Assembly (NCBI GenBank): GCA_963834265.1
Contig: CAWIAU010000003.1
Location: 12,475-76,474, forward strand
Source: an uncultured bacterium
GTDB lineage: Bacteria; Patescibacteriota; Saccharimonadia; Saccharimonadales; 2-12-FULL-41-12
Length of the DNA: 64,000 nucleotides
Reading direction: 5' to 3'
A program made the translations under genes and the position numbers. The notes under the pieces are model-generated. The model was not told where the DNA came from and searched no databases. It worked only from the letters and a program-made list of their open reading frames with translations. The stretch's first letter is position 1. Each line of letters begins with the position of its first letter. Shown piece by piece: positions 14,830 through 29,227 of the stretch.

Positions 14830-14833
14830 TCTC

Positions 14834-15313
14834 ATGACAGAAACGCTTATACTCGGCGCTATCGTATCGTCGCTATGGATTGCTTTTGTATGGCTTCGGG
14901 TGCCAGCAGCATTATTATTCCTAAGCTTGCTTGTAGGGCGACAATTGGTCAGTGAAGTCGGCTATGATGCGTACGAATTTACCGCAACAGTTGTTAAAGT
15001 TAATGATCCGAAGATAGTACAGCTAATCCTGTTTTTATCACCTGTAGTACTAAGCTTGTTATTCCTTCACGGAAAACTGGCCAAATCAAAAATGTTAATA
15101 GAAGCAATTCCATTGTTGTTTGCCGCTGCTATGCTGGTACTGTTTATGGCGCCTTTAATCCCTCATTTGCAACAACTGCTCGATAATGTTCTGAATAATC
15201 AGACAGATACATATCGTAGTCTGGTAGTGGTCTGCGGTTCTGTAGCTATTCTGGTTCTTACCTGGTTCAGCTATGCCCGCACCAGTCACGAAAAGCACGG
15301 CAAGCATCATTGA
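14834..15313 (+). CDS. Multi-TM membrane protein, unknown function
   Basis: 159-aa hydrophobic ORF with no recognised motif. Confidence 0.4.
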   Translation: MTETLILGAIVSSLWIAFVWLRVPAALLFLSLLVGRQLVSEVGYDAYEFTATVVKVNDPKIVQLILFLSPVVLSLLFLHGKLAKSKMLIEAIPLLFAAAMLVLFMAPLIPHLQQLLDNVLNNQTDTYRSLVVVCGSVAILVLTWFSYARTSHEKHGKHH

Positions 15314-15328
15314 CACTTGTTGCATAGA

Positions 15329-15356
15329 TTGACATTTCGCTCAAAATATCGATAAT
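15329..15356 (+). promoter_or_regulatory. Promoter preceding a structured leader and tRNA-Lys
   Basis: TTGACA (15329-15334), a 16-nt spacer, then GATAAT (15351-15356). Two extended hairpins follow at 15401-15430 and 15451-15509. Confidence 0.4.
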
Positions 15357-15526
15357 CTAAGGAGTTATTTCTACTTTTTTACGCCGTAGGCAGCCAAATG
15401 ATTAAACTAAGCAATTTATTGCTGTTTAATCTTTTGAGAGGAAGAACTGCGGAGAGCTGAGCAAGTGATACGAGCAAACTTGTTTTGTCGTATCACCAGA
15501 TCAGCTCCATTAGCAGATTCTGACGA

Positions 15527-15603
15527 GGGTCCATAGCTCAGCCGGTTAGAGCACCTGCCTTTTAAGCAGGGTGTCGTGGGTTCGAGTCCCACTGGACCCT
15601 CCA
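15527..15603 (+). tRNA. tRNA-Lys (anticodon UUU), CCA encoded
   Basis: The cloverleaf was folded by hand: acceptor GGGTCCA/TGGACCC, anticodon arm CCTGC-CTTTTAA-GCAGG, T arm GTGGG-TTCGAGT-CCCAC. The 3' end ...ACCCTCCA contains the element core CCCTCCA (15597-15603). Confidence 0.95.
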
Positions 15604-15616
15604 GTCTAGTAAAATC

Positions 15617-15638
15617 AGCCCCTTCGGGGGCTTTTTTG
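15617..15638 (+). terminator. Rho-independent terminator after tRNA-Lys
   Basis: AGCCCC-TTCG-GGGGCT followed by a T-run. It lies inside the inserted (relic) DNA, not in ancestral flank. Confidence 0.7.
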
Positions 15639-15639
15639 T

Positions 15640-16628
15640 TACTCCGTATCTGTAAATAGGGCTAATTTCTGGTATATAAACATTTTTGTCTGGTGAAAGC
15701 TGTATTCCGCAGGGAAATAACATTTGTTTACATACTCGCATTGTAGCCTTGTCTAGCTCCCACCATTCGTACCCTGTAAGTTGTCCATGATGTCAAAAGC
15801 GAAGACTATGAACTCATGAAAGTCCTTTTCGAAGTTTTGAGCTTCTGATGCGGTCTTGCTCGGCTGTAACAATATCGATCTTTAACTTGCTCAATTGATT
15901 CTTTAATGTCTATCTGCGAGGTCAGGGTTGGCTACCAAGCTGTCTATGAACTTAGTCTTCTTATCTTTCAGTATAGCAAGACGTCCTAAGGCGATTCTAG
16001 CTTGCTCAATCCTTACTTTCTCGTATGACCGCCATACCTTTCTAGCAGTGTTCTTTTAGCTTTTCTCTTTCTGCTCATAAGACAAGAGGAGCTGTGATAG
16101 CTCCTCCGTAATGTCTTTATGGAGTGTTTCTTGTCTCACTCCGAGATTGCAGTCCCGACAGCGATACCTCCTATATCGCTTGAAACCTTTCTTTTGGCCA
16201 TTGTTCTGCCAATATCCTACTAACCTAGGATAAGGATTACCAGCAAATATACACCTTGTACATTCAGCTTCGTTTGAGAATGGGAACTCTGGGTTGTTTT
16301 TATTTACGATGAATCGTTTACCTTTATTTTTAGCCAATGACACAAGTACCTCGTGTTCAGCCTTGGTTATCATAGCCGTGTGCAAGCCCTCCTCATTTTC
16401 CGCTGGCCAATCACCTAGTTTGAGAAAGCCATAATAGTAGGGGTCGCACATAAGGTTCTTCCAGCGGAACATATCTATTTTTTTACCACCGACTGCTTTT
16501 GGCCCATAGTTCTTTGTTCGTAAGCCCCGCTCAGTGACTTTCTTTAGTCCCTCGCTTACAGTTAATTCACCGGCAACCATTTCTTTGAATGTATCTCGCA
16601 TAGCTGACCAATTAGGCTCACCCTCCAA
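15640..16628 (-). pseudogene. Relic of a second large serine recombinase (no catalytic N-domain, frameshifted C-terminus)
   Basis: The 190-aa ORF (16056-16628) parallels the recombinase plus zinc-ribbon region of the intact LSR (DPYYYGFLKLG vs SDFYLGYYYHLG; CTRC...CRDC vs CGEC...C). Downstream, 15640-16055 still translates to LSR-like coiled-coil/C-terminal pieces in three different frames with stops. Confidence 0.7.
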
Positions 16629-18268
16629 GATTCAAATATTTGCGCTAAAGCTGGTTCTAACTGTTTAGAATCGGCTTTTTCTTTAGTTCCGACCTTGAGG
16701 TAGGATTCTTGTAATGGTGAATAATGGTCAGCTATCGGTTTAAGCCAAGCACTCGGCTCTATTACCAGATGATTGTCTTTCAATGTGAGTTGCTGACCTA
16801 AGGTTTTGAGGATATCCCTCTTTGTTCCGACCGTACCTGACGCAAAGTTCTCCTTAGCGTGTACTGCGAAACTAAATGCCCGTTCATTCAACTCATCATA
16901 GCTATCCGCTCTGCGTTCAGTCTTTCGTAATTGTTCATCAACTTGAGCAAGTTCAGTTTTTAAGTTGTTGCGGATACGGTTGTAATCGTCTTCATCAATT
17001 TGCTCGCGGTTTAGGTTTCTAACTAGCTCATCAACTTCTTTTCGCAGGTTAGCACGTTGCTTAATCAATGTTTCATAGAGCTTAGAGCGGTCTTTAACTT
17101 CTTCTTTGTGGTTTCGTTTAAGAATATCTAATGCCATGTCCTTAAACTCTGGAATAATAGTGTATTTCTCAAGTTCGGTCTGTATATCTCTCTCTATATC
17201 TTCAACTTGTGTGTATACGGTTTGAGTACACGGTCTTTTCATACTCTTGCGAGAACAATAGTAGTAAACATAAGTAACGTACTTGTTTTTGCTTTTAATA
17301 AAACGTGTATTGTGTCTTGCTTGAACTAAGCAACCACATTCACCACAGCGAATCATACCGGCATAGGCGTAATCAAAGCCACCAGTTCGTTTGTTGGCCT
17401 TTTTGCCTAGTAAATCTTGGGCTAGGTGATATTCTTCGGCTGTAATCATTGATTCGTAGTTCCCCTCATATTTTACGCCGAGATGATAGTAATAGCCTAA
17501 GTAAAAGTCGCTCTGAAATATGCGGTACACCATACTCTTAGTCATTGGTTGGCCGCCTAATGGTAAACCGTCTTTCCTGCGTTTATACGGAGGCGTTGTA
17601 TAGCTTGTTTCGCTAATAACGTGTTTCCATATTTGCGAAGGGGTCATTCGCTCATTTAGGAACTGATTCCACATATTTTTAACGATGTCATAGCGTTCAG
17701 GGTCTTTAACAGTTTCAGTTACAATTTTTTTCCCACGCATTACAGGATTTCCGTATTGGTCTAATATAGGCGATTTCTTGTAGCCGGGCATTACTCGTCC
17801 GGGCTTTTCGCCAGTGGCGGCCTTAGTTTTTAAGCCCCTTGAAACGTCCACACCTTGCTTAGAGGACTGATATTGCCCTTGGTTCATAACGATTTGCAAC
17901 ATCATGATACCCTCTGGTGTGTTATCAAAGTTATAGGAGCAGAATTGCAGGTCTTTTAATTTGCCTCGTAGAGCATAGGTGATTTCAGCACTATCTATTT
18001 CATTTCTAGAAAGACGGTTTGGGTGCCAACATACTATTGCGTCAGCCTCGCCATTTTCTATCATATTCATCATTTGCCTGAATATTGTTCGTCCGGTTGT
18101 AAAGGCACTTCGGCTTTCAGGTTCAAGCCATTTAACGATGTTAAGGTCTGGGTACTTTGCTTTAATGTTTTCTATTTGGCTTAAATGGGAAAGTTCTTGT
18201 TTTTCTTTATCTTCGCTAGACTTACGAACGTAAGCGATATAGCGTAAATTGTTTTTAGTCTTTTTCAT
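16562..18268 (-). CDS. Large serine recombinase (integrase/invertase), intact, 568 aa
   Basis: It has an N-terminal resolvase domain (YVRKSSEDK catalytic Ser region; NRLSRN), a recombinase domain, a Cys4 zinc ribbon (CGECGC...CSRKS...C) and a long coiled-coil. The last 60 or so codons lie in repeat A and read across the att core. Confidence 0.9.
   Translation of the reverse strand: MKKTKNNLRYIAYVRKSSEDKEKQELSHLSQIENIKAKYPDLNIVKWLEPESRSAFTTGRTIFRQMMNMIENGEADAIVCWHPNRLSRNEIDSAEITYALRGKLKDLQFCSYNFDNTPEGIMMLQIVMNQGQYQSSKQGVDVSRGLKTKAATGEKPGRVMPGYKKSPILDQYGNPVMRGKKIVTETVKDPERYDIVKNMWNQFLNERMTPSQIWKHVISETSYTTPPYKRRKDGLPLGGQPMTKSMVYRIFQSDFYLGYYYHLGVKYEGNYESMITAEEYHLAQDLLGKKANKRTGGFDYAYAGMIRCGECGCLVQARHNTRFIKSKNKYVTYVYYYCSRKSMKRPCTQTVYTQVEDIERDIQTELEKYTIIPEFKDMALDILKRNHKEEVKDRSKLYETLIKQRANLRKEVDELVRNLNREQIDEDDYNRIRNNLKTELAQVDEQLRKTERRADSYDELNERAFSFAVHAKENFASGTVGTKRDILKTLGQQLTLKDNHLVIEPSAWLKPIADHYSPLQESYLKVGTKEKADSKQLEPALAQIFESWRVSLIGQLCEIHSKKWLPVN
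16621..16801. repeat. Inverted repeat A (181 bp), left end of element, includes LSR 3' coding end
   Basis: Exact reverse complement of 19790-19970, compared block by block with no mismatch seen. Confidence 0.9.
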
Positions 18269-18334
18269 AGTGATTACCTCTAATAATTATCAATTAATTG
18301 AGCGGTAATATCACTGAAAGTTATTTATGATATT

Positions 18335-18420
18335 TTATATAAACCTAGTATTAGGTACATACCTCGTACTTATATAAACCTAATACTTTTATATACCTTA
18401 TACCTTATAAATCTAATACC
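18335..18420. repeat. AT-rich short direct repeats in the LSR upstream region
   Basis: TTATATAAACCTA occurs twice about 35 bp apart. ATACCTT x2 and CTAATAC x2 also occur, all between the 129-aa ORF stop and the LSR start. Confidence 0.4.
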
Positions 18421-18453
18421 CGCATTTTTCACTAATGAATAAAGGCGTGCGCT

Positions 18454-18843
18454 CTATCTCCAAGCACATATAATTATTTCATCATCGTGGTTATTTTCTT
18501 TTTCTTGTCTAGTAATTTCAATATCATCTGCATACTCCACCGCTTGCAAACAGCTTCCTTCTATTAAATCCCAGAACAGAGAGTTAGTATCAAACTCACA
18601 GTGTGATATATAAGGTTTTTTCTTCTTGTCTGTTCTGTATTCTGGATTTGGGCTACTCGGACAGTAAACTTTATACTGGCCAGTTTCAGCTTCATATAGG
18701 ACGAGCTTTAAACCATTAAAGTAGATTCCTGCCTTTGGAAACTCTACTTTAATAAGATACGTCGTATAGTCATCAGACGCTTTTTTGCTATATACATTTG
18801 CAACAGGATTACCAATATTCATCAGGAAGTCGTCGTTTAACAT
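18454..18843 (-). CDS. Hypothetical protein (129 aa)
   Basis: ORF directly upstream of the LSR in the same operon. A weak SpoVG-like beta pattern was noted but is not diagnostic. Confidence 0.4.
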   Translation of the reverse strand: MLNDDFLMNIGNPVANVYSKKASDDYTTYLIKVEFPKAGIYFNGLKLVLYEAETGQYKVYCPSSPNPEYRTDKKKKPYISHCEFDTNSLFWDLIEGSCLQAVEYADDIEITRQEKENNHDDEIIICAWR

Positions 18844-19241
18844 AACGACCTCCCATTAATTTGGTGCCAAGCGAGATGTAAATAATCAAAGCGGTCAAAG
18901 CTGAAACTATCATTAGAACAGTAACGATTATCTACACCAGCTTCAACAAGAACGCGATTGAGTTCACTTTTCCGAAGCCTATTAATACGAAACTTACATC
19001 GTAGCCAGCCGGGCTTTTTTATATCGTACTGCCTATAAAGCCAGATAAATGAGTCAAGTTGTTGGCGACTAAGATTTATTTGTGTTCTATCTTTTGAACT
19101 AAGGAGTAAAGTCCGTACTAAATCCTCTTTAGAAGATAGCAGTTGAGTGTTTGTGTGGTTTAGCTTTGATTGTTTATTTTGAGTTGGAGTTTCTAGATGA
19201 GTTGAGTTCATTGCTTTTTCCATATTCATATTCATATTCAT
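18837..19241 (-). CDS. Hypothetical protein (up to 134 aa; true start probably internal)
   Basis: The ORF overlaps the upstream gene by 68 nt if the first ATG is used. The 5' end is an (ATGAAT)3 repeat. No motif was recognised. Confidence 0.3.
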   Translation of the reverse strand: MNMNMNMEKAMNSTHLETPTQNKQSKLNHTNTQLLSSKEDLVRTLLLSSKDRTQINLSRQQLDSFIWLYRQYDIKKPGWLRCKFRINRLRKSELNRVLVEAGVDNRYCSNDSFSFDRFDYLHLAWHQINGRSLC

Positions 19242-19545
19242 TATTAATAGAGCGATTTGAAGACTCGCCGTATATTCTGGCTTTGATTAGCCGTATATGT
19301 TCCAGCAGAATAGTTGCCGAAAGTTTTAATTCGCTAGCCCAAAACTTTTCAACCTGCTTTTTTAGTTCTGGCGTATTTATAAACAAAAAGACAACCCGCC
19401 TTGGATTGTCTTTATTTATTCTTGCCAGTTTAAATCCGCTTGCTGATAGGGTAGCGGCTAAACCCATGTCTGATGTTTGAAAATAACGAGGGACGCCAGT
19501 AATAGGCGAATTGTCATCTTCATTTCGTGGAGTTTTGCTTTCCAC
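19174..19545 (-). CDS. DUF5659-like small protein (123 aa)
   Basis: The central block DMGLAATLSASGFKLARINKDNPRRVVFLF resembles the DUF5659 pattern common in phage and mobile elements. It is the first gene of the recombinase operon. Confidence 0.4.
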   Translation of the reverse strand: MESKTPRNEDDNSPITGVPRYFQTSDMGLAATLSASGFKLARINKDNPRRVVFLFINTPELKKQVEKFWASELKLSATILLEHIRLIKARIYGESSNRSINNEYEYEYGKSNELNSSRNSNSK

Positions 19546-19691
19546 AATTTACCCCCTTTAGGGACGTGCGAGATACCTGCTTTCTCTAACAGGCTCGTAC
19601 TTTTTAAATTGTTAGCGTAAGTCTGGAGAGAATGACTTACAGCAAAAATCCTATATATTTACCCTCTTAAATTGCTAATTTGTATAAATAC

Positions 19692-19720
19692 ATTATATTA
19701 CACTTATGCTAATATTGCAA
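19692..19720 (-). promoter_or_regulatory. Promoter of the recombinase-module operon
   Basis: On the minus strand: TTGCAA (19715-19720), a 17-nt spacer, then TATAAT (19692-19697). Confidence 0.45.
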
Positions 19721-19789
19721 CATCTATTCGCTGTAATAAAAACATTATGGTATTTTTATGTATAATAAAAATTAACTTTACTTCTTAGG

Positions 19790-19970
19790 TTAGGTCAGCA
19801 ACTCACATTGAAAGACAATCATCTGGTAATAGAGCCGAGTGCTTGGCTTAAACCGATAGCTGACCATTATTCACCATTACAAGAATCCTACCTCAAGGTC
19901 GGAACTAAAGAAAAAGCCGATTCTAAACAGTTAGAACCAGCTTTAGCGCAAATATTTGAATCTTGGAGGG
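19790..19970. repeat. Inverted repeat A' (181 bp), internal copy
   Basis: Exact reverse complement of 16621-16801. It duplicates the LSR C-terminal codons, which is why the track shows ORF 19808-20032. Confidence 0.9.
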
Positions 19971-20130
19971 GCGTAGTTACTTCTATTGGAACTATCTTAC
20001 AGGAAAATACGCTAGTATTTATTGCTGTTTAATAGTGGATTAGGAATTGTGCGGTTCTCACTTCAATCGCTTGTTATAGGGCGAGTATGTAAGGCTAACG
20101 GCGAATTATCACTGTTCCTTCGCTGTATTT
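19964..20130. repeat. Inverted repeat B (167 bp), internal copy
   Basis: Exact reverse complement of 27613-27779. It overlaps A' by the 7-bp core TGGAGGG (19964-19970) and ends 1 bp before the stop codon of the 219-aa gene. Confidence 0.9.
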
Positions 20131-20131
20131 T

Positions 20132-20791
20132 CTAATTCAATAATTCCGAGATTAGTACTTTGAAGTTTAACTCACCAATATTTTTAGGCGAAATCACCAC
20201 ATTCTGTGCGCTACTGAGGGTCATATATGAATAGTCAGCCAACTCTGGAACTGCTTCTATCCATAAATTACGGCTCCGCATAATGACGATAGTTTTATTT
20301 TTTCGTATGGCTTCCCTTACAAGTTCAAACGAATAAAGTTGAGATGGAGTGTAGCGTCCAATATGCTTATAGTTCACAGAGTGATAAGGAAAATACTCTA
20401 TCATCATTATTTTTTTCTTTAGAACTTCCTCTGTAATCCCTTGCTGTATCAAGGGCTTTAGCTTAGCCGACCACCATTTGTAGCCACCGGTTTCTTCAAG
20501 CCCGCCCGCAAAGTAGTAAAAGTCAGATTTATACGGGTCATTTAGATTAGTCCTGCAACCATTAATAAATCTAGCAAGTTTCATATTTATATCTACATCA
20601 GAATCTGTAAATCCTGGGTTCAGTGCCAAGAATATAACCTTTGCATTATCTAAACCACCTACTAAAGGCTCAGGCAAAGTATCAAGTCTTAAACCAATGA
20701 AGTTCTTATGACTCTCAATAACATTACTATCTTCTTCTAATATATATGGTTCTTTTGTTGGTAATTTTATCCATGGGTTTTCTGTATTCAT
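20132..20791 (-). CDS. Hypothetical protein (219 aa), partner of the HEPN-like gene
   Basis: It lies 2 nt downstream of the 334-aa gene. FLALNPGF and YFPYHS are loosely reminiscent of uracil-DNA-glycosylase-superfamily motifs A and B. This is a weak, motif-only impression. Confidence 0.4.
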   Translation of the reverse strand: MNTENPWIKLPTKEPYILEEDSNVIESHKNFIGLRLDTLPEPLVGGLDNAKVIFLALNPGFTDSDVDINMKLARFINGCRTNLNDPYKSDFYYFAGGLEETGGYKWWSAKLKPLIQQGITEEVLKKKIMMIEYFPYHSVNYKHIGRYTPSQLYSFELVREAIRKNKTIVIMRSRNLWIEAVPELADYSYMTLSSAQNVVISPKNIGELNFKVLISELLN

Positions 20792-20793
20792 AA

Positions 20794-21798
20794 TTATTTC
20801 TTTGGATTTAGTTGCACCTTTAGAATTACACGCAGAAAGAAGAAAAACACTATATTAAAAGTCGTAAAGTTACATTCGTTTACCGCAATATCACCATGTG
20901 CAATTTTATGCCTAAATCGTTGTGCATTTGGGTCGTACAAAAAATATCCAAGCATATAGCAAAAGTCTTCACCCCAAACCTTTATGAACTCATCTGATTT
21001 TAATATCTCAACTGACAGTGTCTTATTTCTTGTGCTGGTCTGCTTGCCATTATATGTATAAACATCCAATCCTAATAAGCCTGAAAAATGCATGAATGTT
21101 TTATCAAATAATGGGACTAAAATATGCAGAGCAGAGAAGTAGTCATTAGCAAATCTGCGTTCTAATACAGCTTCAATCTTTAACAAGAACTCACCAGTAA
21201 AAATACCCTTGGACATTATTAAGTCCATTAGATTCTTTTGTGTAAACTGCTTATTGCTAATTAGCTCCGATACTATTCTGTTTAATGAACCAATAGAAAG
21301 ATTCATATTCATACCGTAGTTTTCTAAGAACCAACTGGTTTCAAAGTCATCAAAGGAAGTTACATGCCCTTCATCGCCAATAGTCATGTGTGTAACCAGC
21401 TGTGCGGTTATTGGCACTATTTCAGTAGAAGTTTTTTTGACGCTTGCAACGCTGGGAAGCAACTCTTTTGTATTAACAATATTTTCAAGGTTCTCGCCTA
21501 ACGAATCAGAAGATGTTAATTCTTTAACCATACTTTCAAGAAATGTAACTATATCCTTATCAAGCGGAACATCTATTTTATGGCTCTGCATAGCGTCTTC
21601 TGACTTTTTGGTATATGCAACCGATAGTTTTTTTAATTCCTGCACCGCTGTACTGTCATTTGCTTCCCCATATAATTTCAGCGATTTAATCGCATAAAAT
21701 GAAGCGCTCATGTAATCACCCTTTTCAGCCGCTTCATTGGCTTGCTGTTTGAGCTTTAATGCACTAGCAGTTTTCTCTTTATTAGTCGTTTTGGTCAT
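20794..21798 (-). CDS. HEPN-like (Rx4H) Abi-type protein, 334 aa
   Basis: The C-terminal RFRHKIAHGD fits the HEPN Rx4-6H motif, as in the Abi2/DUF4209-type families. The body is helical, and the gene sits in a defence-island context. Confidence 0.45.
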   Translation of the reverse strand: MTKTTNKEKTASALKLKQQANEAAEKGDYMSASFYAIKSLKLYGEANDSTAVQELKKLSVAYTKKSEDAMQSHKIDVPLDKDIVTFLESMVKELTSSDSLGENLENIVNTKELLPSVASVKKTSTEIVPITAQLVTHMTIGDEGHVTSFDDFETSWFLENYGMNMNLSIGSLNRIVSELISNKQFTQKNLMDLIMSKGIFTGEFLLKIEAVLERRFANDYFSALHILVPLFDKTFMHFSGLLGLDVYTYNGKQTSTRNKTLSVEILKSDEFIKVWGEDFCYMLGYFLYDPNAQRFRHKIAHGDIAVNECNFTTFNIVFFFFLRVILKVQLNPKK

Positions 21799-21953
21799 AC
21801 AGAGATTATACTCTGTTATTTTGTCGGCTTTTTAGGTAGCAAGCTATTCGGGTCTTTACGAATTGAACGTATCCATGTCTTATTCTCAAAATCGTTAAGG
21901 TCAATAGTGATTATCTTGGATTTAGGCATATATCCATATTAATACTTGTTACT

Positions 21954-22220
21954 CTATTTTTCCCGTTCACCGTACTCTGATTTCTTCTTTTCCTGATAAA
22001 TATCATAGATTAGATTAGCCATATTTTTGGCGTCTTTCTTAATCTGTAACTTGCGGCGAGCCGTTTCCAAAGAGTCCTTTGCTAATAGGTCAAGCGTTTC
22101 AACTACCTCAGATATCTCTTGGTCAGACATACTGATAGCGACATCGCCTAGAATATTTCTTGCCTCCTCAATGCTTACGATAGAATTAGAGCTACTCACA
22201 ATATTATTATCCTTTACCAT
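21954..22220 (-). CDS. Hypothetical small acidic/helical protein (88 aa)
   Basis: The ORF heads the minus-strand operon and is divergent from the DUF262 gene. No motif was recognised. Confidence 0.3.
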   Translation of the reverse strand: MVKDNNIVSSSNSIVSIEEARNILGDVAISMSDQEISEVVETLDLLAKDSLETARRKLQIKKDAKNMANLIYDIYQEKKKSEYGEREK

Positions 22221-22261
22221 GATTTTACTTTTTTTACCTGTAATAACCTATACTACTCATA

Positions 22262-23938
22262 ATGACCAATATTCAAGAAACCATTATTAAATCCGAAGGT
22301 ATTGCGCATTTATTGCAGGATAGAAAGCTAGTTGTGCCTCCTTATCAACGTTCTTATTCATGGGAAAAGCACAACGTAGAACAGTTCTTTCTGGACATTA
22401 CTGACGCATTCCTAGAAGGCCATCATGAATACTTCCTTGGTTCTATCGTTCTTATTAAATCTGATAACGGAAAACTTGAAATTGTTGACGGGCAACAGAG
22501 GCTTGCAACCACAGCTCTATTTATTGCCGCAATTAAAAATTATTTTATTAAGAACGGAGAGAAAATAAGAGCTGACGCAGTAGTATCTAAATATCTTTAT
22601 TCAATCGACGAACTAAGTATGGACATGGAGCAACACCTAGAATTGAATGTTCAAGACAACGGATTTTTTCAAGAATTATGTGAAAAGCCATGGCCGGTAA
22701 CACCTGTATCAAGAAAATCCGTAAAAAACTTATTTAGTGCCTCTGAGTTGGCAGAACAAAAAGTTGAGGATATTGCTAAAAATACCAAAGACCCAGTAAA
22801 CACACTCGCAAGATTAGTAAAATACCTAAAAGATAATGTGAAGGCTATTGCAGTTATTGTTCCGGATGAAGCGAATGCTTTTACAATATTTGAAACACTT
22901 AATGACCGAGGGCTTGCTTTATCTATTGCTGATTTACTAAAGAATTACTTATTCGGTAAATCCGAGAAACGTATAGAAGAAGCAAAGAGTCAGTGGGCTC
23001 TACTCAGCGGAATATTAGAAACAATTGGAGATGATTCTCTACTACCAACTTTTATAAGACATTTTTGGTCATCTCACTATGGCCCGACCACTGAAAAAGA
23101 ACTATTTAATAAAATAAAAACCAGAATTAATTCAAGTAAAGACGCAATAGATTTCATAGATAAACTTGTTAAACACTCTAAGGATTATGTAGCTTTATTA
23201 AATCCTGAGCATGAAAAATGGCAAAAGTTAAGCCCTGATGTACAGCAATCTATAAAAATTATTAACGATATGAGGCTAGAGCAACCGCGTCCATTGTTAC
23301 TAGCAATTGTTGGATATTTTTCGGACCGGGAGTTATCCAAGGCTCTAAAGAAGACGGTGGATTGGACGGTCAGACTACAAGTGGCTGGTAATACCAGAAC
23401 TGGTCAGTTTGCAAAAACACTATCTGATATTTCCATAAAAGTAGTAGAAGGAGAAATTGTTAACACAAAGCAATTAACAATTGAAATCCAAAAAATACTG
23501 CCTTCTAACGAGGACTTTAGTACTGCATTTGAAAACCTTGGTGCTACACGTTATATCGCCCGTTATTACTTGATTGAGTTTGAGAAAAAACAGCGTGAAT
23601 TAAGTGGAGAGAAAATTGAGCTTGTACCAAGTTATTCTACTGATGAAGTAAACCTTGAACATATACTTCCTATAACCCCGGGCAAAGAATGGCCTGATAC
23701 CGATACCGAAGTTTCACGGGCTTATTACAATCGCTTGGGCAACCTGACCATAATAAACTCTAAGGAAAACTCAAAATTAGGAAACCAGAGTTTTTCAAAA
23801 AAGAAAATAGTTTATAAAAGTTCAGCTTTTCAACTAACTAAGTCAATTTGTAAGTACACCGACTGGGACATTGACAGCATTAAAGACCGCCAAAAAGATA
23901 TGGCTAAATTAGCACCGAAGATATGGCCGATAATCTAG
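22262..23938 (+). CDS. DUF262/DUF1524 protein (GmrSD-like type IV, modification-dependent restriction enzyme family)
   Basis: N-terminal DUF262 motifs (PPYQRSYSW, DGQQRL) plus a C-terminal DUF1524 His-Me finger (EHILP...LGNLTIINSKENSKLGN). Confidence 0.85.
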   Translation: MTNIQETIIKSEGIAHLLQDRKLVVPPYQRSYSWEKHNVEQFFLDITDAFLEGHHEYFLGSIVLIKSDNGKLEIVDGQQRLATTALFIAAIKNYFIKNGEKIRADAVVSKYLYSIDELSMDMEQHLELNVQDNGFFQELCEKPWPVTPVSRKSVKNLFSASELAEQKVEDIAKNTKDPVNTLARLVKYLKDNVKAIAVIVPDEANAFTIFETLNDRGLALSIADLLKNYLFGKSEKRIEEAKSQWALLSGILETIGDDSLLPTFIRHFWSSHYGPTTEKELFNKIKTRINSSKDAIDFIDKLVKHSKDYVALLNPEHEKWQKLSPDVQQSIKIINDMRLEQPRPLLLAIVGYFSDRELSKALKKTVDWTVRLQVAGNTRTGQFAKTLSDISIKVVEGEIVNTKQLTIEIQKILPSNEDFSTAFENLGATRYIARYYLIEFEKKQRELSGEKIELVPSYSTDEVNLEHILPITPGKEWPDTDTEVSRAYYNRLGNLTIINSKENSKLGNQSFSKKKIVYKSSAFQLTKSICKYTDWDIDSIKDRQKDMAKLAPKIWPII

Positions 23939-24031
23939 AAAGTCTGTCGCTTGATGAAGATAGTCTAAATGCAATGGTTGATTACTTTAAATTACTAGCA
24001 GAAATAGAAGCTCAGCAAGGTGATTAAGTAG

Positions 24032-24202
24032 CTATTGTTTGAAAAGGTCTTTCAGCTCAGGGTGATTCTTTATCCAATAATGAAGCGTGTTTCTAGATAC
24101 ATTAAGTCGCTTTGCAATATCAACCTTACTCTCTTTATTTTTCACCGCCTCTTTGATTATCGGAATTACTTCGCTGAGTTCGTATTTCTTAGGTCTAGCC
24201 AT
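24032..24202 (-). CDS. Small helix-turn-helix protein (56 aa from MARPKKYE)
   Basis: It has an HTH-like stretch, VDIAKRLNVSRNTLHYWIKN. It lies 8 nt downstream of the putative nuclease as the last gene of the R-M operon. Confidence 0.45.
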   Translation of the reverse strand: MARPKKYELSEVIPIIKEAVKNKESKVDIAKRLNVSRNTLHYWIKNHPELKDLFKQ

Positions 24203-24210
24203 AATAGTAG

Positions 24211-25500
24211 TTAGCCCACAAGCTCCTGTAAACTTTCCAACCATGCATTACATGGTTCATCTATCGGAGCATATAGTCTTCTTTTTTGAGATAGTGATTC
24301 AGCATAAGCGATTAACCATGCCTTTGCAATAGGCAAACTTTTTTCATTCCCGTATTGCTTCGCATACTTATCTAACCAGTCGTCAAACACAAGAAGCTCG
24401 ATTTTATTGCCGGTTAACTCTTCAATTTCTGCCACTCTTGAATTGATTTCGTCATCTAAAATCGGACTAGAGCTTGTTACAAAACCCAATGCCTGTAACT
24501 CATAATTCTTTGCAGTTATTTTTTCATATATTTCTTCTATTTCATCACGCAAGTATTCTTTGCCATATTTTGCGTCCCAAGCGACTACAATCTCATTGCC
24601 ATCTAATAACTCAACATCGCCTATATTTCCATGCTTCTTATTCGCTGAACGCATTTGAGATAATGGCTTTACCGTAAGCCCTTCCAGTAATAACAAATCT
24701 TGCAGAGCTTGAAAGAAACTATGTATAGATATTTCAAAAAGTCTTGCCTTATAGCTTGAAGTGTCTATGTGTTTTTGGATTAGCTCTCTAACTTGGTCTA
24801 AACTACTAACCTCTATTTGGTTAACTTTGCCTAATACTTTTTCTGCCAATGTATTAAAATTACCTGCTCGGTTGATTAGTAAAGACAGCACATATTTTAG
24901 AGCTTCTTCTGCGGGGAGTTTGTTTTTCTCAAGCTGTGAAACAATCTCTAACCATTCATCTCTAGCTCCACGCAATTTTGCTTTGTATACTTTTGAATAA
25001 GGATAATTTTCCGCTAGACTTCGCGTCATCATAAAGCCATCTGCATTAAGTCTAATTAAATCGTAATGCCTTAGCACAGGCGTGATGTAATACTTGTCCA
25101 AAGAACGCATAGAAATGCCCTCTTTCCAAGAAAATGAAGCACTACTTGAACTGCCTTTATGGAGCATAACTGATTGCTCTGGGATGATTGCCTTAATAGT
25201 TAGTTGCATGATTGAGATTGCAACCAAGGCTCTACCAACTTCACTAGTAACCGAATTAACCAATCTATTTAAAATGTCCAACTGTTCGTCGGTTAACGTG
25301 TCAGAGGCATAAGTCGTACCTTCAACTAAGCCGTCAATAAGATTGCTTAAATAGCTAGCTTCTAGAGCCGTTTTTATTTGAGCATATCTACGTTTGGCTT
25401 CATCGCTAACCGTACCTTCTTCAAATACTAAATCAAGACCATCAGACGTTTCATGGAGTTCACTTTTATTTAGGTAGACTTTTAGAAAGATATCATCCAT
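24211..25500 (-). CDS. Putative type II restriction endonuclease (PD-(D/E)xK)
   Basis: It sits immediately downstream of the C5-methyltransferase (1-nt gap). It has the candidate catalytic motif GDVELL-x9-VVAWDAKYGK. No closer family assignment is possible. Confidence 0.5.
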   Translation of the reverse strand: MDDIFLKVYLNKSELHETSDGLDLVFEEGTVSDEAKRRYAQIKTALEASYLSNLIDGLVEGTTYASDTLTDEQLDILNRLVNSVTSEVGRALVAISIMQLTIKAIIPEQSVMLHKGSSSSASFSWKEGISMRSLDKYYITPVLRHYDLIRLNADGFMMTRSLAENYPYSKVYKAKLRGARDEWLEIVSQLEKNKLPAEEALKYVLSLLINRAGNFNTLAEKVLGKVNQIEVSSLDQVRELIQKHIDTSSYKARLFEISIHSFFQALQDLLLLEGLTVKPLSQMRSANKKHGNIGDVELLDGNEIVVAWDAKYGKEYLRDEIEEIYEKITAKNYELQALGFVTSSSPILDDEINSRVAEIEELTGNKIELLVFDDWLDKYAKQYGNEKSLPIAKAWLIAYAESLSQKRRLYAPIDEPCNAWLESLQELVG

Positions 25501-25501
25501 T

Positions 25502-27499
25502 TTAGAGAGCCTTAGCGTACTGTACTTTTCTAGATGTTAATGTGGGGAAGGCGTAGGGAATAATGTAATGCCCGGCTTTAATCTGGGGGTTAGTGTTCCT
25601 ATTCCTAATTTCATAACCGTAAAGTTTAAGTCTTCTCATAGCTTCTTCAATAACATTCTCTTTCTCACCGACAATCTCAACTAACTCAGCTAGGGTCTTT
25701 TCAACACCAACTATACTCTTTTTACCAAATGACTGTATTAAACGCCAAATGACATCTTGATTAATTTGCTCGTCTAGAACGGTAGTTATTTTTATAGTCG
25801 GAGAATATTGGTAGTAACCTGCGAACTGAACCATATCGGCATAGCCTAGGCATTCTTTAATTTCCATCTCAATAAACTTCCAACCAGCCAAGTAATGATT
25901 TAAGTCTGGTTCTTCAAGAATTAGTTGTATCTTCTCAAAGCTAAAAGGCCATGATTCACTCAACACTGGCTCTATTGTTGTTACTACTGGGGCTAATGTA
26001 GTTTTCAGTGATTTATATTTACCAACTTCATCGTTAGATGATGTAATTATTTGCCAAGTATTATTCTTGATTTTGGTTTCAATAAATACATTAATCCCTT
26101 TATCATTTCCTTCACTTAAATTGAGCTTGGCGTCCAAATGAAAAGGCTTTCTATTTTTAAATAGAATTGGTTTCAGCTCCGTTTTCTTTAGTTTTGCTAT
26201 GGCACCCTCTGCGATTTGTTGATATCTCGTAGTCAACTGTCGTTTGCGAGTTCTAAAACCTAATTTTTCGTTGGGAGCTAATAGAGGTAAGTTAAAAGGA
26301 AGTTTTGTATCAAATACTTGAGTTAATACTGACAGTGCAAGCATCCTTCCAAACTGTGGAGGTACGCTGTTACCAATCTGATGTATTGCTACGCCCCTTG
26401 AACCTACTAATTCAAAGTTATCAGGAAAAGTTTGTAATCGCTTTAATTCATCTGCATTAAACGGTCTATTGAACCAGCTAAAGGGGCCTGTGTACTTTCC
26501 GCCCTGCGCTTTAATTGCTCTAACTGGCATTGATGGGTCAGCTTTATATAAAAAGTCGGAGAACTTAGAACGCCATCCAAATACAGGTTGGGGGTGTCCT
26601 AATTTTTTTGTGTAGTAACTATAATTCAACCCCGGTGGAATACCTTCAAGTAAATGACCGTATTGACCACCTAATCCGTTGCCCTCGTTTGCGCTGTGGT
26701 CTGCCAACGCTTCTCCAGCAGTATAGTGATTCAACCCTATTCTAGAATCAGGGCCGTGAGTTGGCGCAGGGAACTTAAAGTCAATCTTAGGGTCTTTAAT
26801 TCCAACGATGATTAGCCGTTCACGGTGTTGAGGCACACCATAATCTGCGGCGTCTAAAATGCGATAATGGAGGCGATAACCGGCTTCATTAAAAGATTTG
26901 ATGATAAGCCTCCAAGGTTCTCCGCCTTGGGCACCGACAATCGCATACACATTTTCAAATAGAAAAGCCTTGGGCTTTAATGTATTTAAAAGCCGGACAT
27001 ATTCTTGGAATAACATTCCGCGAGGGTCTTCTATTCCTTTAACGCCCGCCGCGCGTCTTCCAGCGGCAGAAAAAGTCTGGCAAGGGGGGCCACCTACTAT
27101 CAAATCTATTTCGCCTATATTCTCAGGGTTGTATTTGCGAATATCTATTGTGTTAACTTTGCTACCTTGGAATATTTTGCCTTTTTCTGTATTTGCTTCC
27201 AGTGTCTTGGTAAACTTTGGTTCAATTTCCACCATTTCAACAATGTCAAAACCAGCCTGATGAAATCCTATGTCTAGTCCACCTGCGCCACTGAATAAGC
27301 TGAGGGTTCTTATTTTTTTCTTGCCTAATGTTTTAGCAGTAATGCCATTTATTATGGCTCCAAAGTCATCAACCCAGCCGGGCTTTTCAGTATCAATACC
27401 TAACTCACTCAAAAAGTTTTCTTTAACAGGCTCACTCACTTCGTCTATTAGAGATTGCTGTTTTGCTTTTGAATTAGTAAGCTGTTGAGCCGCGCCCAT
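25502..27499 (-). CDS. DNA (cytosine-5)-methyltransferase with about 260-aa C-terminal extension
   Basis: Motif I is LFSGAGGLDIGF, IV is GGPPCQTFS, VI is FLFENV, VIII is QHRERLIIVG and X is GNSVPP. The sequence after motif X has no recognisable domain. Confidence 0.92.
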   Translation of the reverse strand: MGAAQQLTNSKAKQQSLIDEVSEPVKENFLSELGIDTEKPGWVDDFGAIINGITAKTLGKKKIRTLSLFSGAGGLDIGFHQAGFDIVEMVEIEPKFTKTLEANTEKGKIFQGSKVNTIDIRKYNPENIGEIDLIVGGPPCQTFSAAGRRAAGVKGIEDPRGMLFQEYVRLLNTLKPKAFLFENVYAIVGAQGGEPWRLIIKSFNEAGYRLHYRILDAADYGVPQHRERLIIVGIKDPKIDFKFPAPTHGPDSRIGLNHYTAGEALADHSANEGNGLGGQYGHLLEGIPPGLNYSYYTKKLGHPQPVFGWRSKFSDFLYKADPSMPVRAIKAQGGKYTGPFSWFNRPFNADELKRLQTFPDNFELVGSRGVAIHQIGNSVPPQFGRMLALSVLTQVFDTKLPFNLPLLAPNEKLGFRTRKRQLTTRYQQIAEGAIAKLKKTELKPILFKNRKPFHLDAKLNLSEGNDKGINVFIETKIKNNTWQIITSSNDEVGKYKSLKTTLAPVVTTIEPVLSESWPFSFEKIQLILEEPDLNHYLAGWKFIEMEIKECLGYADMVQFAGYYQYSPTIKITTVLDEQINQDVIWRLIQSFGKKSIVGVEKTLAELVEIVGEKENVIEEAMRRLKLYGYEIRNRNTNPQIKAGHYIIPYAFPTLTSRKVQYAKAL

Positions 27500-27612
27500 T
27501 CCTATACCCTCTTTTAGTCTTTTGACGTTTATTTCCTGGTAAACATTATAACTCTTTATTCAGCCTATTGCTTACCTTTACAGTTATTAATAAATTAAAG
27601 CTAATTTATTCT

Positions 27613-27779
27613 AAATACAGCGAAGGAACAGTGATAATTCGCCGTTAGCCTTACATACTCGCCCTATAACAAGCGATTGAAGTGAGAACCGCACAATTCC
27701 TAATCCACTATTAAACAGCAATAAATACTAGCGTATTTTCCTGTAAGATAGTTCCAATAGAAGTAACTACGCCCCTCCA
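27613..27779. repeat. Inverted repeat B' (167 bp), right end of element
   Basis: Exact reverse complement of 19964-20130. It ends with the core CCCTCCA at 27773-27779. Confidence 0.9.
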
Positions 27780-27808
27780 CGGTGAACCTAGTAGAAAGAT
27801 AGGAACTA

Positions 27809-27830
27809 AGAGTCATTATGGCTCTTTTTT
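27809..27830 (+). terminator. Orphan rho-independent terminator just outside attR
   Basis: AGAGTC-ATTAT-GGCTCT followed by TTTTTT. No plus-strand gene lies upstream in the present arrangement, which fits it being the ancestral tRNA-Lys terminator. Confidence 0.55.
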
Positions 27831-27853
27831 ATTGACACCACGAATACAAATAG

Positions 27854-27872
27854 TATACCCTAGGGGGGTATA
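27854..27872 (+). promoter_or_regulatory. CsoR-type operator overlapping the copper-operon promoter
   Basis: The GC-cored palindrome TATACCC-TAGGG-GGGTATA is of the type bound by CsoR repressors. TTGACA lies at 27832-27837 upstream. Confidence 0.5.
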
Positions 27873-27885
27873 GGAATTACTAAAT

Positions 27886-28374
27886 ATGCGCAATAATCAT
27901 CAGCAAAATGAACATAGTGTAAATGAAATGGCTGTCAGCGCAACCCTTCACTGCTTAACTGGCTGTGCCATTGGCGAGGTCTTAGGACTCATTATTGGCA
28001 CTATACTTGGATTAAGTACTGTAATTACAATACTGTTAGCAGTTATTCTGGCATTTATCTTTGGCTTTAGCCTTTCAACGCTGCCATTAGTTAAAGCTGG
28101 AATAGGCTTTACTGCCGCACTAGCTGTTGTAGCTGCAGCGGATACACTTTCAATTGCCACCATGGAACTGGTTGATAACCTAGTAATGATGGGAATTCCA
28201 GGCGCCTTACATGCAGGGCTTGTAGACCCATTATTTTGGATTAGTATGCCTATTGCACTTACTGCTGCCTTCTTTGCGGCGGTGCCCGTTAATAAACACT
28301 TGCTAAAGCGTAATAAAGGTCATGCCCTGACAATGAAATTGTTGGACGAGCAGGGTCACGGACATAACCACTAA
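27886..28374 (+). CDS. DUF4396-family membrane protein
   Basis: It has the TLHCLTGCAIGEVLG motif and 4 TM helices. A His-rich C-terminus (GHGHNH) suggests metal handling. Confidence 0.55.
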   Translation: MRNNHQQNEHSVNEMAVSATLHCLTGCAIGEVLGLIIGTILGLSTVITILLAVILAFIFGFSLSTLPLVKAGIGFTAALAVVAAADTLSIATMELVDNLVMMGIPGALHAGLVDPLFWISMPIALTAAFFAAVPVNKHLLKRNKGHALTMKLLDEQGHGHNH

Positions 28375-28380
28375 GGAGGT

Positions 28381-28659: not shown

Positions 28660-28669
28660 GGAGGAAATT

Positions 28670-29065: not shown

Positions 29066-29227
29066 ACAGGAGCTTTTTATATACTAGGTTTTTCCTCTGC
29101 GATTTTAGTTGTAATAGATTGCACTTTAATCCACCACGAAATGACTTATATTAAAGGCAGGTTATTTTTTGAATATTTAGCTCGATACTTTCCAATAAGC
29201 ACCTTTTAAGCTGTTATAATAAGGATA

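What the first reader, a model, noticed from the sequence alone, without database searches (positions are those of the whole stretch)
16621..27779. Serine-recombinase element carrying an internal, inverted, base-perfect copy of its own joined ends (two back-to-back invertible modules, 2-micron-like topology)
Seen directly:
- 16621-16801 is the exact reverse complement of 19790-19970 (181 bp).
- 19964-20130 is the exact reverse complement of 27613-27779 (167 bp).
- The two internal copies overlap by 7 bp (TGGAGGG, 19964-19970).
- The same 7-mer (CCCTCCA) is the outermost block of both outer copies (16621-16627 and 27773-27779). Identity stops at the very next base outside each.
- Hence rc(19790-20130) equals 27613-27779 fused to 16628-16801. 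This is exactly the junction that circularising 16621-27772 would create.

Inference:
- The outer sites behave as attL/attR of a large-serine-recombinase element with a 7-bp common core.
- The internal 341-bp block is a second attP-type site in inverted orientation.
- The excised circle (11,152 bp) would consist of two 341-bp inverted repeats. These would separate a 2,988-bp recombinase module (16802-19789) from a 7,482-bp defence module (20131-27612).
- This is the layout of the yeast 2-micron plasmid, where recombination across the inverted repeats flips the unique segments.
- In the integrated state each module is independently bracketed by perfect inverted repeats and could flip.

I do not know of a described LSR integrative element with this organisation.
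Basis: partly seen in the sequence, partly recalled or inferred. Interest (0 to 1): 0.85.

Follow-up and report, generated by a model that had tools for sequence, protein, structure and literature searches.

The report
Integrative element with internal inverted attP
A mobile DNA island that inserts next to a lysine tRNA gene in a Saccharibacteria-type genome carries a second, flipped, letter-perfect copy of its own attachment site, and the same odd layout recurs in distantly related elements of ultra-small bacteria, so it is probably a maintained design, not an accident.

Summary
16621-16801 is the reverse complement of 19790-19970, and 19964-20130 of 27613-27779. The inner 341 bp equal the joined ends.

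The element belongs to a family of large-serine-recombinase (LSR) islands of Ca. Saccharimonadales. These insert at the 3' end of tRNA-Lys, and the 7-bp core is the last 7 nt of that tRNA. A relative with a direct LSR-core-P-arm junction shows the inner block is a genuine attP, here inverted.

An independent k=31 assembly breaks exactly 30 nt into both cargo-flanking arms, so an artefact is unlikely.

- The left junction is not a canonical attL. It abuts a decayed recombinase gene, and the tRNA with a fourth core copy lies 1 kb further left.
- The layout is not unique. The closest relative and at least 8 elements of a distant Patescibacteria LSR clade share it.
- Arms are more alike within an element than between relatives, which indicates concerted evolution.
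- In 10 of 10 elements the recombinase gene points toward the outer junction, so free flipping of that module is not supported.

The function is unproven: 2-micron-like isomerisation of the excised circle, a cis-regulatory site, or a maintained scar. It is a new variant of a known kind.

The parts
15527..15603 (+). tRNA-Lys(ttt). It is the true bacterial half of the attachment site. Its last 7 nt (15597-15603, CCCTCCA) are a fourth copy of the core (c0).
   Evidence: ARAGORN and Rfam tRNA at 73.8 bits. In relatives of the family with a tRNA called nearby, the LSR 3' end overlaps a tRNA-Lys 3' end.
15604..16620 (-). Piece A: the 3' two-thirds of a decayed serine-recombinase gene of another family. 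It also reads across the core into tRNA-Lys antisense. A terminator hairpin lies at 15617-15632.
   Evidence: Translation with in-frame stops, ending ...LLDWRVQWDSNPRHPA. Homologues are P0125-P0129; P0129 carries a Resolvase domain joined to this region. The right flank of the element does not continue the gene.
16621..16627 (.). Core copy c1 (CCCTCCA), the left outer junction. It is attL-like but lacks a tRNA-type half-site on its outer side.
16628..16801 (-). Outer P' arm. It encodes the last ~60 codons of the recombinase and contains a 14-bp-stem hairpin plus T-run (16647-16678, + strand).
16562..18268 (-). Large serine recombinase, 568 aa. Its last 19 codons lie outside the element, in piece A.
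   Evidence: Pfam Resolvase, Recombinase and Zn_ribbon_recom. PHROG integrase. 682 homologues.
18454..19545 (-). Three small genes upstream of the recombinase (129 aa, 134 aa, and a 123-aa DUF5659 protein). A promoter-like site lies at 19720-19692. The same gene set sits upstream of the LSR in relatives.
19790..20130 (+). Internal inverted attP: the P' arm copy (19790-19963), core c2 (19964-19970, TGGAGGG) and the P arm copy (19971-20130). It encodes a 74-aa ORF (19808-20032), which is the recombinase C-terminus with the attP-type tail.
   Evidence: It matches the direct attP junction of L045 and the conserved P-arm motif.
20131..27612 (.). Cargo module with seven genes: a 219-aa protein with a weak Brig1-like match, a DUF4209/PDC-S39-like protein, an 88-aa protein, GmrSD/HEC-06 (+ strand), a 70-aa HTH protein, a 429-aa protein of unknown function (possible restriction partner), and a 665-aa C5 cytosine methylase.
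   Evidence: The same seven ORFs, plus two short extra gene calls, lie on an independent 7,542-nt Logan contig.
27613..27779 (+). Outer P arm (27613-27772) plus core c3 (27773-27779). This is attR. It is followed by a terminator-like hairpin at 27808-27826.

Best explanation
**Shown**
- 16621-27779 is a horizontally acquired island with lower G+C than its flanks.
- It belongs to a Saccharimonadales family whose large serine recombinase inserts the element at the 3' end of tRNA-Lys.
- The crossover region is the 7-bp core. The recombinase gene runs across attP, so its C-terminal tail changes with the state of the element.
- In this copy a complete second attP (160-nt P arm, core, 174-nt P' arm) sits in inverted orientation just upstream of the recombinase operon. 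The recombinase module and the cargo module are therefore each bracketed by perfect inverted repeats.
- The same layout occurs in the closest relative and throughout a distant Patescibacteria LSR clade that targets other tRNAs.
- The two copies of each arm evolve in concert.

**Inferred**
- The arms exchange sequence by homologous recombination or gene conversion. This keeps them identical and can invert either module.
- Excision would give an 11,152-bp circle with two inverted attP sites. Weak attPxattP activity of the LSR, or host recombination, could interconvert its isomers, and either site could be used for re-insertion.
- In the chromosome the orientation with the recombinase gene converging on the tRNA is the selected resting state.
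- The inner site also places a terminator and a recombinase-binding site directly upstream of the recombinase operon.
- This particular copy is probably immobilised at its left end, because c1 has no tRNA-type half-site.
- A possible origin is a head-to-head dimer of the circular form, trimmed by deletions down to the present arms.
For: - **Repeat geometry:** exact.
- **Composition:** G+C is 0.35-0.40 inside the element and 0.42-0.51 outside.
- **LSR domains:**
- **Family and target:** 40 genome loci, mostly Ca. Saccharimonadales. In every locus of this LSR family where a tRNA was called next to the gene, the LSR 3' end overlaps the tRNA-Lys 3' end.
- **Protein tails:** roughly 100 of about 115 homologues end in the tRNA-antisense tail. 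Five, all on contigs of at most 14.5 kb, carry the P-arm-coded tail.
- **Direct attP junction:** seen in L045.
- **Half-site geometry:** the P half-site carries its GAAC/TTCGAA motif 4-5 nt further from the core than the tRNA half-site. This is the attP versus attB geometry described for LSRs (PMC11722253).
- **Independent assembly:**
- **Same layout elsewhere:** L001 (90% LSR, same RimK neighbourhood). L088, L089 (two elements), L091 and L108 each have both repeat pairs with a 4-5-nt overlap. L087, L090 and L041 have the recombinase-flanking pair. In each case except L108 the outer arm ends at a tRNA 3' end; L108's outer arm abuts a second LSR element that lies next to tRNA-Glu.
- **Concerted evolution:**
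  - Window versus L001: 97/97 and 96/96 within an element, 79/97 between.
  - L088 versus L089, P' arm: 108/108 and 104/107 within, 100-101/108 between.
  - L088 versus L089, P arm: 70/71 and 71/71 within, 61-62/71 between.
- **Regulatory features:** terminator-like hairpins in both P' arm copies, and an operon promoter 70 nt from the inner arm.
- **LSR behaviour on two attP sites:** attPxattP recombination has been measured (PMC3556126) and attPxattP synapsis has been seen by cryo-EM (PMC11722253).
Against: - No read-level data were available. No second isomer, no circle junction and no empty site were seen for this element.
- All 10 elements with the layout have the recombinase gene facing the outer junction (about 0.1% likely if orientation were random). 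Inversion of that module is therefore rare or counter-selected.
- Cargo orientation is the same in L088, L089-2 and L108.
- Most members of the element's own family (about 60 loci) have no internal inverted site, so the site is not required for mobility.
- No replication gene was recognised in this element, which weakens the plasmid-amplification analogy.
- The arms (70-180 nt) are much longer than an LSR site needs, and the site-specific part of the model does not explain this.
- L086 has an upstream arm of a different type from its own 3' arm, so homogenisation is not universal.
Confidence: 0.55

Rival explanations
1. Cis-regulatory site only. The inverted attP is not used for strand exchange. 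It survives because it places a recombinase-binding site (auto-repression), a terminator/insulator and possibly a promoter directly upstream of the recombinase gene. It is kept identical to the real attP by gene conversion.
For: - In every example the inverted arm ends 35-100 nt before the recombinase start codon. In the window it ends 70 nt before the promoter-like site of the recombinase operon.
- The orientation is fixed in 10 of 10 elements.
- The arm hairpin is oriented to stop read-through from the cargo operon into the recombinase operon.
- A promoter-like TTGAGC-18-TATGAA lies in the inverted arm of L088; I read this from the sequence.
Against: - A binding site needs about 50 bp, not 340.
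- It does not explain why the P arm is also duplicated and why the cargo is bracketed.
- There is no expression data.
- Most family members do without it.
Confidence: 0.2
2. Maintained scar. The layout is an inverted duplication with no role of its own, for example what is left of a head-to-head dimer or a nested insertion. It persists because inverted repeats cannot be deleted by homologous recombination and are homogenised by gene conversion.
For: - Arm lengths differ between lineages (71-181 nt) and look arbitrary.
- Degenerate similarity continues beyond the perfect part of the arms.
- Most relatives lack the feature.
- This copy seems immobilised.
Against: - The layout recurs in at least two unrelated LSR lineages and across a clade that has switched between five tRNA targets, always with the same geometry.
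- It is retained over 7-19% sequence divergence with arms still at least 97% identical.
Confidence: 0.17
3. Phase-variable cargo. The repeats exist to flip the defence module, or the recombinase module, as an on/off or isoform switch in the chromosome, as in invertons.
For: - Each module is bracketed by perfect inverted repeats.
- Flipping the recombinase module would swap the recombinase's C-terminal tail and place the gene in the sense direction behind the tRNA promoter.
- L096 has a solo P' arm next to tRNA-Lys. It is cut at the same codon, with a cargo-type gene abutting it, which would fit a flipped isomer.
Against: - Promoters of the cargo genes lie inside the module, so flipping should not change their expression.
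- 10 of 10 recombinase modules and 3 of 3 comparable cargo modules have one orientation.
- The L096 contig is too short to tell a flip from a deletion.
Confidence: 0.05
4. Assembly artefact: a chimeric or mis-joined contig, for example from amplification chimeras or from a mixture of integrated and excised forms.
For: The repeats are longer than common k-mer sizes, and the window's own reads could not be inspected.
Against: - An independent k=31 assembly supports both cargo/arm junctions.
- A mixture of integrated and circular forms would give direct, not inverted, repeats (reasoning from graph structure).
- The same geometry, ending exactly at att cores next to tRNA genes, appears in at least 9 unrelated assemblies made with different assemblers.
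Confidence: 0.03

Closest known systems
Large serine integrase elements and prophages (phiC31, Bxb1, A118, SPbeta type)
   Same: The enzyme class is the same (Resolvase + Recombinase + Zn-ribbon domains). The sites are short with a small common core, and the P-type half-site motif lies 4-5 bp further from the centre than the B-type motif. Integration gives attL and attR.
   Different: A second complete attP is kept inside the integrated element in inverted orientation, with arms of 160-174 nt. The recombinase gene itself spans attP, so integration changes its C-terminus. No directionality factor was identified.
Yeast 2-micron plasmid (Flp/FRT)
   Same: For the predicted excised circle, the topology matches: two long inverted repeats, each containing the recombinase target, split the circle into two unique regions, one of which encodes the recombinase. 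Copies of the repeat stay identical.
   Different: The recombinase is a serine enzyme, not a tyrosine one. The element is seen integrated. No circle, no origin or replication gene and no second isomer were observed. In 2-micron the two isomers are about equimolar (my own knowledge), whereas here 10 of 10 elements show one orientation.
Hin/Gin/Cin/Pin invertible segments
   Same: A serine recombinase gene lies next to or inside a segment bounded by inverted sites (hin lies inside its segment; my own knowledge).
   Different: Those are small serine invertases with 26-bp sites and an enhancer. Here the enzyme is a 568-aa integrase-type LSR, the repeats are 167-181 nt, and the outer sites are hybrid att sites at a tRNA.
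SCCmec-type tandem accretion by Ccr large serine recombinases
   Same: Several elements or remnants stack at one chromosomal site. Examples here are piece A plus the element in the window, the two elements in L108, and the cassette arrays in L024 and L013.
   Different: In such arrays the internal junctions are direct repeats. Here the internal site is inverted.
Engineered recombinase-mediated cassette exchange with inverted att sites
   Same: A cargo is flanked by two inverted copies of the same att half-sites. This prevents excision of the cargo and permits exchange or inversion.
   Different: That is a laboratory design. There is no evidence that natural exchange occurs here, beyond L088 and L089-2 sharing arms while carrying different cargo.

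Membership tests
Large serine recombinase (protein family) | N-terminal resolvase catalytic domain with the conserved serine | tested here: met
   PF00239 at residues 11-154, E 4e-18. S17 in the YVRKSS motif is invariant in 26 homologues.
Large serine recombinase (protein family) | C-terminal recombinase domain plus zinc ribbon, followed by a long helical segment | tested here: met
   PF07508 at residues 191-288 and PF13408 at 303-364. The Cys positions are invariant. The coiled-coil was not modelled.
LSR integrative element | Element bounded by direct copies of a short core, one at a conserved host target (attB) | tested here: met
   Cores lie at 16621-27 and 27773-79, and the same 7-mer ends tRNA-Lys at 15597-15603. 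Relatives sit at tRNA-Lys, with a core plus P arm at their far end.
LSR integrative element | attL is a hybrid of a bacterial half-site and an element half-site | tested here: not met
   For this copy the outer flank of c1 is a truncated recombinase gene with no tRNA-type motif. The closest relative, L001, has the canonical tRNA/P' junction.
LSR integrative element | attP exists as the joined ends (circular or pre-integration form) | tested here: met
   For the family, L045 shows a direct junction, and five homologues have the P-arm-coded tail on short contigs. This was not seen for this exact element.
LSR integrative element | An empty attB exists in related genomes lacking the element | not tested
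   No syntenic genome without an insertion was recovered. Exact look-ups of flanking proteins found nothing.
2-micron-type amphimeric plasmid | Two long inverted repeats, each holding the recombinase target, separate two unique regions | tested here: met
   This follows from the sequence for the predicted 11,152-bp circle.
2-micron-type amphimeric plasmid | Autonomously replicating circular form with an origin and replication/partition genes | tested here: not met
   No replication or partition family was found in any of the element's proteins. The analogous element L091 does carry an AEP-like primase.
2-micron-type amphimeric plasmid | Two isomers coexist through recombination across the repeats | tested here: inconclusive
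   No reads were available. Across 10 elements only one recombinase-module orientation is seen. Concerted evolution shows that the arms do interact.
Small serine invertase system (Hin/Gin) | A recombinase of about 190 aa with a C-terminal HTH, acting on ~26-bp inverted sites with an enhancer | tested here: not met
   The protein is 568 aa with integrase-type domains. It matches PHROG integrase at 1.9e-64 and PHROG DNA invertase at only 5e-15.

The most novel reading that the evidence does not exclude
The internal inverted attP is a functional part of a previously undescribed design of serine-integrase elements that is widespread in Patescibacteria. By keeping a full attP beside attL and attR, the element either isomerises and amplifies as a 2-micron-like circle, or uses the extra recombinase-bound site to control directionality and expression without a separate directionality factor. 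The recombinase switches between a chromosome-coded and an element-coded C-terminal tail.
Probability: 0.3. Interest if true: 0.85.

Novelty: new variant of a known kind. Interest (0 to 1): 0.68.

Why it matters
Serine integrases are valued as strictly directional two-site enzymes, and natural elements are thought to carry one attP.

This is a natural, recurrent, evolutionarily maintained layout with a second inverted attP inside the integrated element. It occurs across a recombinase clade with thousands of members in ultra-small bacteria that lack most classical gene-transfer machinery. Three explanations remain open:
- an unknown way of regulating or using these enzymes, such as three-site control, attPxattP isomerisation or tail switching;
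- a route by which such elements copy or stabilise themselves;
- a general rule about how inverted duplications are kept identical.

The question is directly testable with the recombinase and about 50-bp sites. The family also offers a set of tRNA-targeting integrases with defined attP/attB pairs.

Tried and rejected
- **Exact-protein look-ups.** I looked up the recombinase, RimK, the CsoR-like protein and two small ORFs to find the source contig, empty sites or other isomers. None were on record. One of these used wrong coordinates and was wasted.
- **Viral collection.** No relatives were found.
- **Rfam.** Nothing in the arms; only the tRNA matched.
- **Right flank as the other half of piece A.** Rejected: a stop codon lies about 15 codons upstream of the core.
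- **Window from a cyanobacterial excision element.** This was my first guess and is rejected. All relatives are Saccharimonadales/Patescibacteria.
- **Each module as an independent transposon with terminal inverted repeats.** Rejected, because the repeat ends coincide with att cores at tRNA 3' ends and the inner arms share one core.
- **One-step origins by site-specific recombination.** I considered attP x pseudo-attB inversion, tandem integration, antiparallel synapsis, and recombination between elements at two tRNA genes. None reproduces the structure. All give direct repeats, hybrid sites or palindromic junctions. This is paper reasoning, not computation.
- **P0136.** I chose it as a possible flipped isomer because of its non-tRNA tail on a 56-kb contig. 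It turned out to be another element in the usual orientation, lying next to a second element.
Full report
**1. The observation**

The repeat finder reports two inverted pairs in 14000-31000:
- 16621-16801 / 19790-19970: 181 nt, 100%, 2,988 nt apart.
- 19964-20130 / 27613-27779: 167 nt, 100%, 7,482 nt apart.

A direct string comparison shows that rc(19790-20130) equals 27613-27779 + 16628-16801, and that identity ends at the next base at all four boundaries. The finding is correct as written, and chance is not an issue.

**2. What the region encodes**

The 2,988-bp segment (all on the minus strand):
- A 568-aa large serine recombinase (LSR) with Resolvase, Recombinase and zinc-ribbon domains (16562-18268).
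- Three small genes upstream of it, one of them DUF5659.

The 7,482-bp segment is defence cargo:
- a GmrSD/HEC-06 type IV nuclease;
- a 665-aa C5 methylase with an adjacent 429-aa unknown protein;
- a DUF4209/PDC-S39-like protein;
- a weak Brig1-like match.

G+C is 0.35-0.40 inside the element against 0.42-0.51 outside. The flanks are ordinary chromosomal genes: RimK, DUF192, DUF4396, a CsoR-like repressor and YebC.

**3. The target is tRNA-Lys**

ARAGORN finds tRNA-Lys(ttt) at 15527-15603.

The LSR has 682 homologues. Of the 40 genome loci recovered with it, most are in Ca. Saccharimonadales. In every locus of this family where a tRNA was called next to the gene, the 3' end of the gene overlaps the 3' end of a tRNA-Lys gene on the other strand. 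Roughly 100 of about 115 homologues therefore end in a tail translated from tRNA antisense (...WRAQWDSNPRHPA).

At the far end of these 8-12-kb elements the core recurs, followed by a conserved arm (TGGAGGGcc..g....cTATyGCAAC).

One metagenome contig, L045, shows the LSR running through the core straight into such an arm and on into cargo. That is a direct attP junction. Four further homologues, all on contigs of at most 14.5 kb, carry this P-arm-coded tail.

The window's inner block has the same anatomy, so it is a true attP of this family, but inverted relative to the outer sites. It is the only such case among the family loci scanned, apart from L001.

The GAAC motif sits about 5 nt further from the core in the P arm than in the tRNA (sequences). 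That matches the attP/attB geometry described for LSRs (PMC11722253).

**4. The left junction is not a canonical attL**

They hold the 3' two-thirds of a decayed serine-recombinase gene of another family:
- It has in-frame stops, and it too ends by reading across a core into tRNA-Lys antisense.
- Its homologues include P0129, which carries a Resolvase domain.

The sequence right of 27779 does not continue this gene. The outer flank of c1 has no tRNA-type half-site.

I infer that an older element at the same tRNA was truncated when, or after, the present one arrived, and that the present copy may no longer be able to excise cleanly. I did not test this.

Similar LSR-next-to-truncated-LSR arrangements are common in the distant clade. 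There they appear as 817-894-aa fusion proteins, such as P0133.

**5. Is it an artefact?**

The cargo methylase and GmrSD proteins are found, letter for letter, on a Logan contig of run ERR12037361. Its length (7,542 nt) and gene positions place it at window 20101-27642. That is the cargo plus exactly k-1 = 30 nt of each arm, which is the signature of a unitig bounded by a repeat on both sides.

A mixture of integrated and excised forms would produce direct repeats, not inverted ones. The same geometry also appears in many unrelated assemblies (section 6). I put the artefact reading at about 3%.

**6. The layout recurs**

*L001.* This is an ENA k141 contig from a related organism with the same RimK/DUF192 neighbourhood. 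Its LSR is 90% identical in protein and 84% in DNA, and the gene abuts tRNA-Lys directly. A perfect inverted copy of the LSR 3' end lies 39 nt upstream of the start codon, and the contig ends inside that arm. The inner boundary of the arm is within 6 nt of the window's.

*A distant clade.* These LSRs are 25-31% identical to the window's and at least 49% identical to each other. The clade has more than 6,000 homologues, mostly Patescibacteria. It shows the same layout wherever the contig allows it to be seen:
- L087 (tRNA-Pro), L090 and L041 (tRNA-Lys ctt) and L089-1 (tRNA-Gln) have near-perfect repeats of 100-120 nt bracketing the LSR gene.
- L088, L089-2 (both tRNA-Glu), L091 (tRNA-Gly) and L108 also have a second pair bracketing the cargo. 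The two inner arms overlap by 4-5 nt, and that overlap is the core.
- The outer arm ends at the tRNA 3' end in each case except L108, whose outer arm abuts a second LSR element lying next to tRNA-Glu.

Cargo differs widely:
- L088: SDR, glyoxalase, methyltransferase and EamA transporter.
- L089-2: a single 195-aa ORF.
- L091: an AEP-like primase and a wHTH protein.
- L108: melibiase, PHP and a glycosyltransferase.

**7. The arms evolve in concert**

| Comparison | Within an element | Between elements |
|---|---|---|
| Window vs L001, P' arm | 97/97 and 96/96 | 79/97 |
| L088 vs L089-2, P' arm | 108/108 and 104/107 | 100-101/108 |
| L088 vs L089-2, P arm | 70/71 and 71/71 | 61-62/71 |

For reference, the LSR body is 83% identical between the window and L001, and 92.5% between L088 and L089-2.

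The arm boundaries are shared within each pair. The duplication therefore predates the splits, and the copies have been homogenised since. Where mismatches exist they lie toward the inner ends of the arms. This is the strongest evidence that the two copies interact physically.

L086 is an exception. Its upstream arm is of another type than its own 3' arm.

**8. Do the modules flip?**

In all ten elements the LSR gene points toward the outer junction: window, L001, L041, L087, L088, L089-1, L089-2, L090, L091 and L108. The outer junction is the tRNA 3' end in eight of them; in the window it is piece A, and in L108 a second element. With random orientation that outcome has a probability of about 0.1%.

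The cargo ends of L088, L089-2 and L108 are also co-oriented.

Consensus assemblies hide minorities. Even so, free 50:50 flipping of the recombinase module is not supported.

One possible flipped case is L096. A solo P' arm, covering LSR residues 491-550 and cut at the same codon as the window's arm, sits next to tRNA-Lys with an SDR gene abutting it. An SDR homologue lies about 3 kb upstream of the LSR in L035, possibly as cargo. The contig is too short to tell a flip from a deletion.

Characterised LSRs do not recombine attP with attL or attR, and they recombine two attP sites only weakly (PMC3556126). A tetramer synapsing two attP sites has been seen by cryo-EM (PMC11722253). Recombinase-driven inversion is therefore plausible in an excised circle. 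In the chromosome, host homologous recombination is the likelier agent.

**9. What the inner site could do**

These are inferences.

(a) After excision the circle would have two inverted attP sites. Isomerisation and re-insertion through either site follow from the topology. No replication function was found here, though L091 carries a primase.

(b) The inner site always lies just upstream of the recombinase gene or operon. In the window the arm hairpin is oriented to terminate the cargo operon before the recombinase operon, whose promoter-like site lies 70 nt away. A role as insulator and auto-regulatory binding site is equally consistent with the fixed orientation.

(c) Flipping, or integration through the other site, would give the recombinase the P-arm-coded tail and put the gene in the sense direction behind the tRNA promoter.

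(d) It may be a maintained scar.

A head-to-head dimer of the circle, trimmed by two deletions, reproduces the structure on paper. None of the single site-specific events I tried does.

**10. Verdict**

The structure is real. The element is a member of a known kind, an LSR integrative element at a tRNA gene. It carries a layout I could not find described, and that layout turns out to be recurrent and evolutionarily maintained in Patescibacteria.

The mechanistic inference, independently flipping modules driven by the LSR in the chromosome, is not supported by orientation statistics or by known LSR behaviour. It needs read-level and biochemical tests.

Noticed in passing
L024:1-3300 (also L013:3555 and 4906): Downstream of a tRNA-Lys LSR element lies an array of five single-gene cassettes. 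Each has the TGGAGGG core, a conserved P arm, one ORF (120-372 aa), a terminator hairpin and a conserved ~25-nt flank. These are direct internal attP-type junctions and resemble an integron-like cassette array run by a serine integrase.
   Followed up: partly
window 15604-16620; proteins P0133, P0138, P0147, P0149, P0161: An intact LSR is repeatedly found fused or abutted to an N-terminally truncated second LSR that itself faces the tRNA. It seems to be a systematic outcome of elements stacking at one tRNA, possibly deletion between an internal att junction and a pseudo-site in the resident recombinase gene.
   Followed up: partly
L086:880-1016 versus L086:2400-2510: The inverted arm upstream of this LSR resembles the L090 (tRNA-Lys) type by eye, while the gene's own 3' arm and target are of the tRNA-Pro type. 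The two arms are not homogenised here, which suggests exchange of recombinase 3' ends between elements.
   Followed up: no
window 27854-27872: A near-perfect palindrome (7 pairs, 5-nt loop), TATACCCCCCTAGGGTATA, lies just upstream of the DUF4396 + CsoR-like operon (27886-28659). It is probably the operator of the metal-sensing repressor.
   Followed up: no
window 29228-29953 versus L025:8705-9415 and L010:17818-18516: YebC lies on the 5' side of tRNA-Lys in two relatives, but on the far side of the element and in the opposite relative orientation in the window. This could reflect a chromosomal inversion with an endpoint at the attachment site.
   Followed up: no
window 16647-16678 (+) and 19913-19944 (-): The P' arm contains a 14-bp-stem hairpin followed by a T-rich run, inside the recombinase coding sequence on the opposite strand. 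At attL it would terminate read-through from the tRNA. In the inner copy it would terminate the cargo operon.
   Followed up: partly
L088 and L089:3103-4886: Two elements share 91% identical recombinase, arms and tRNA-Glu target but carry different cargo (4.8 kb versus 1.1 kb) between the same inverted P arms. This is consistent with cargo replacement between conserved arms.
   Followed up: partly
L108:11502-16549: A second LSR element without the inverted-repeat layout lies between the inverted-repeat-type element and tRNA-Glu. This is tandem accretion, analogous to piece A plus the element in the window.
   Followed up: no
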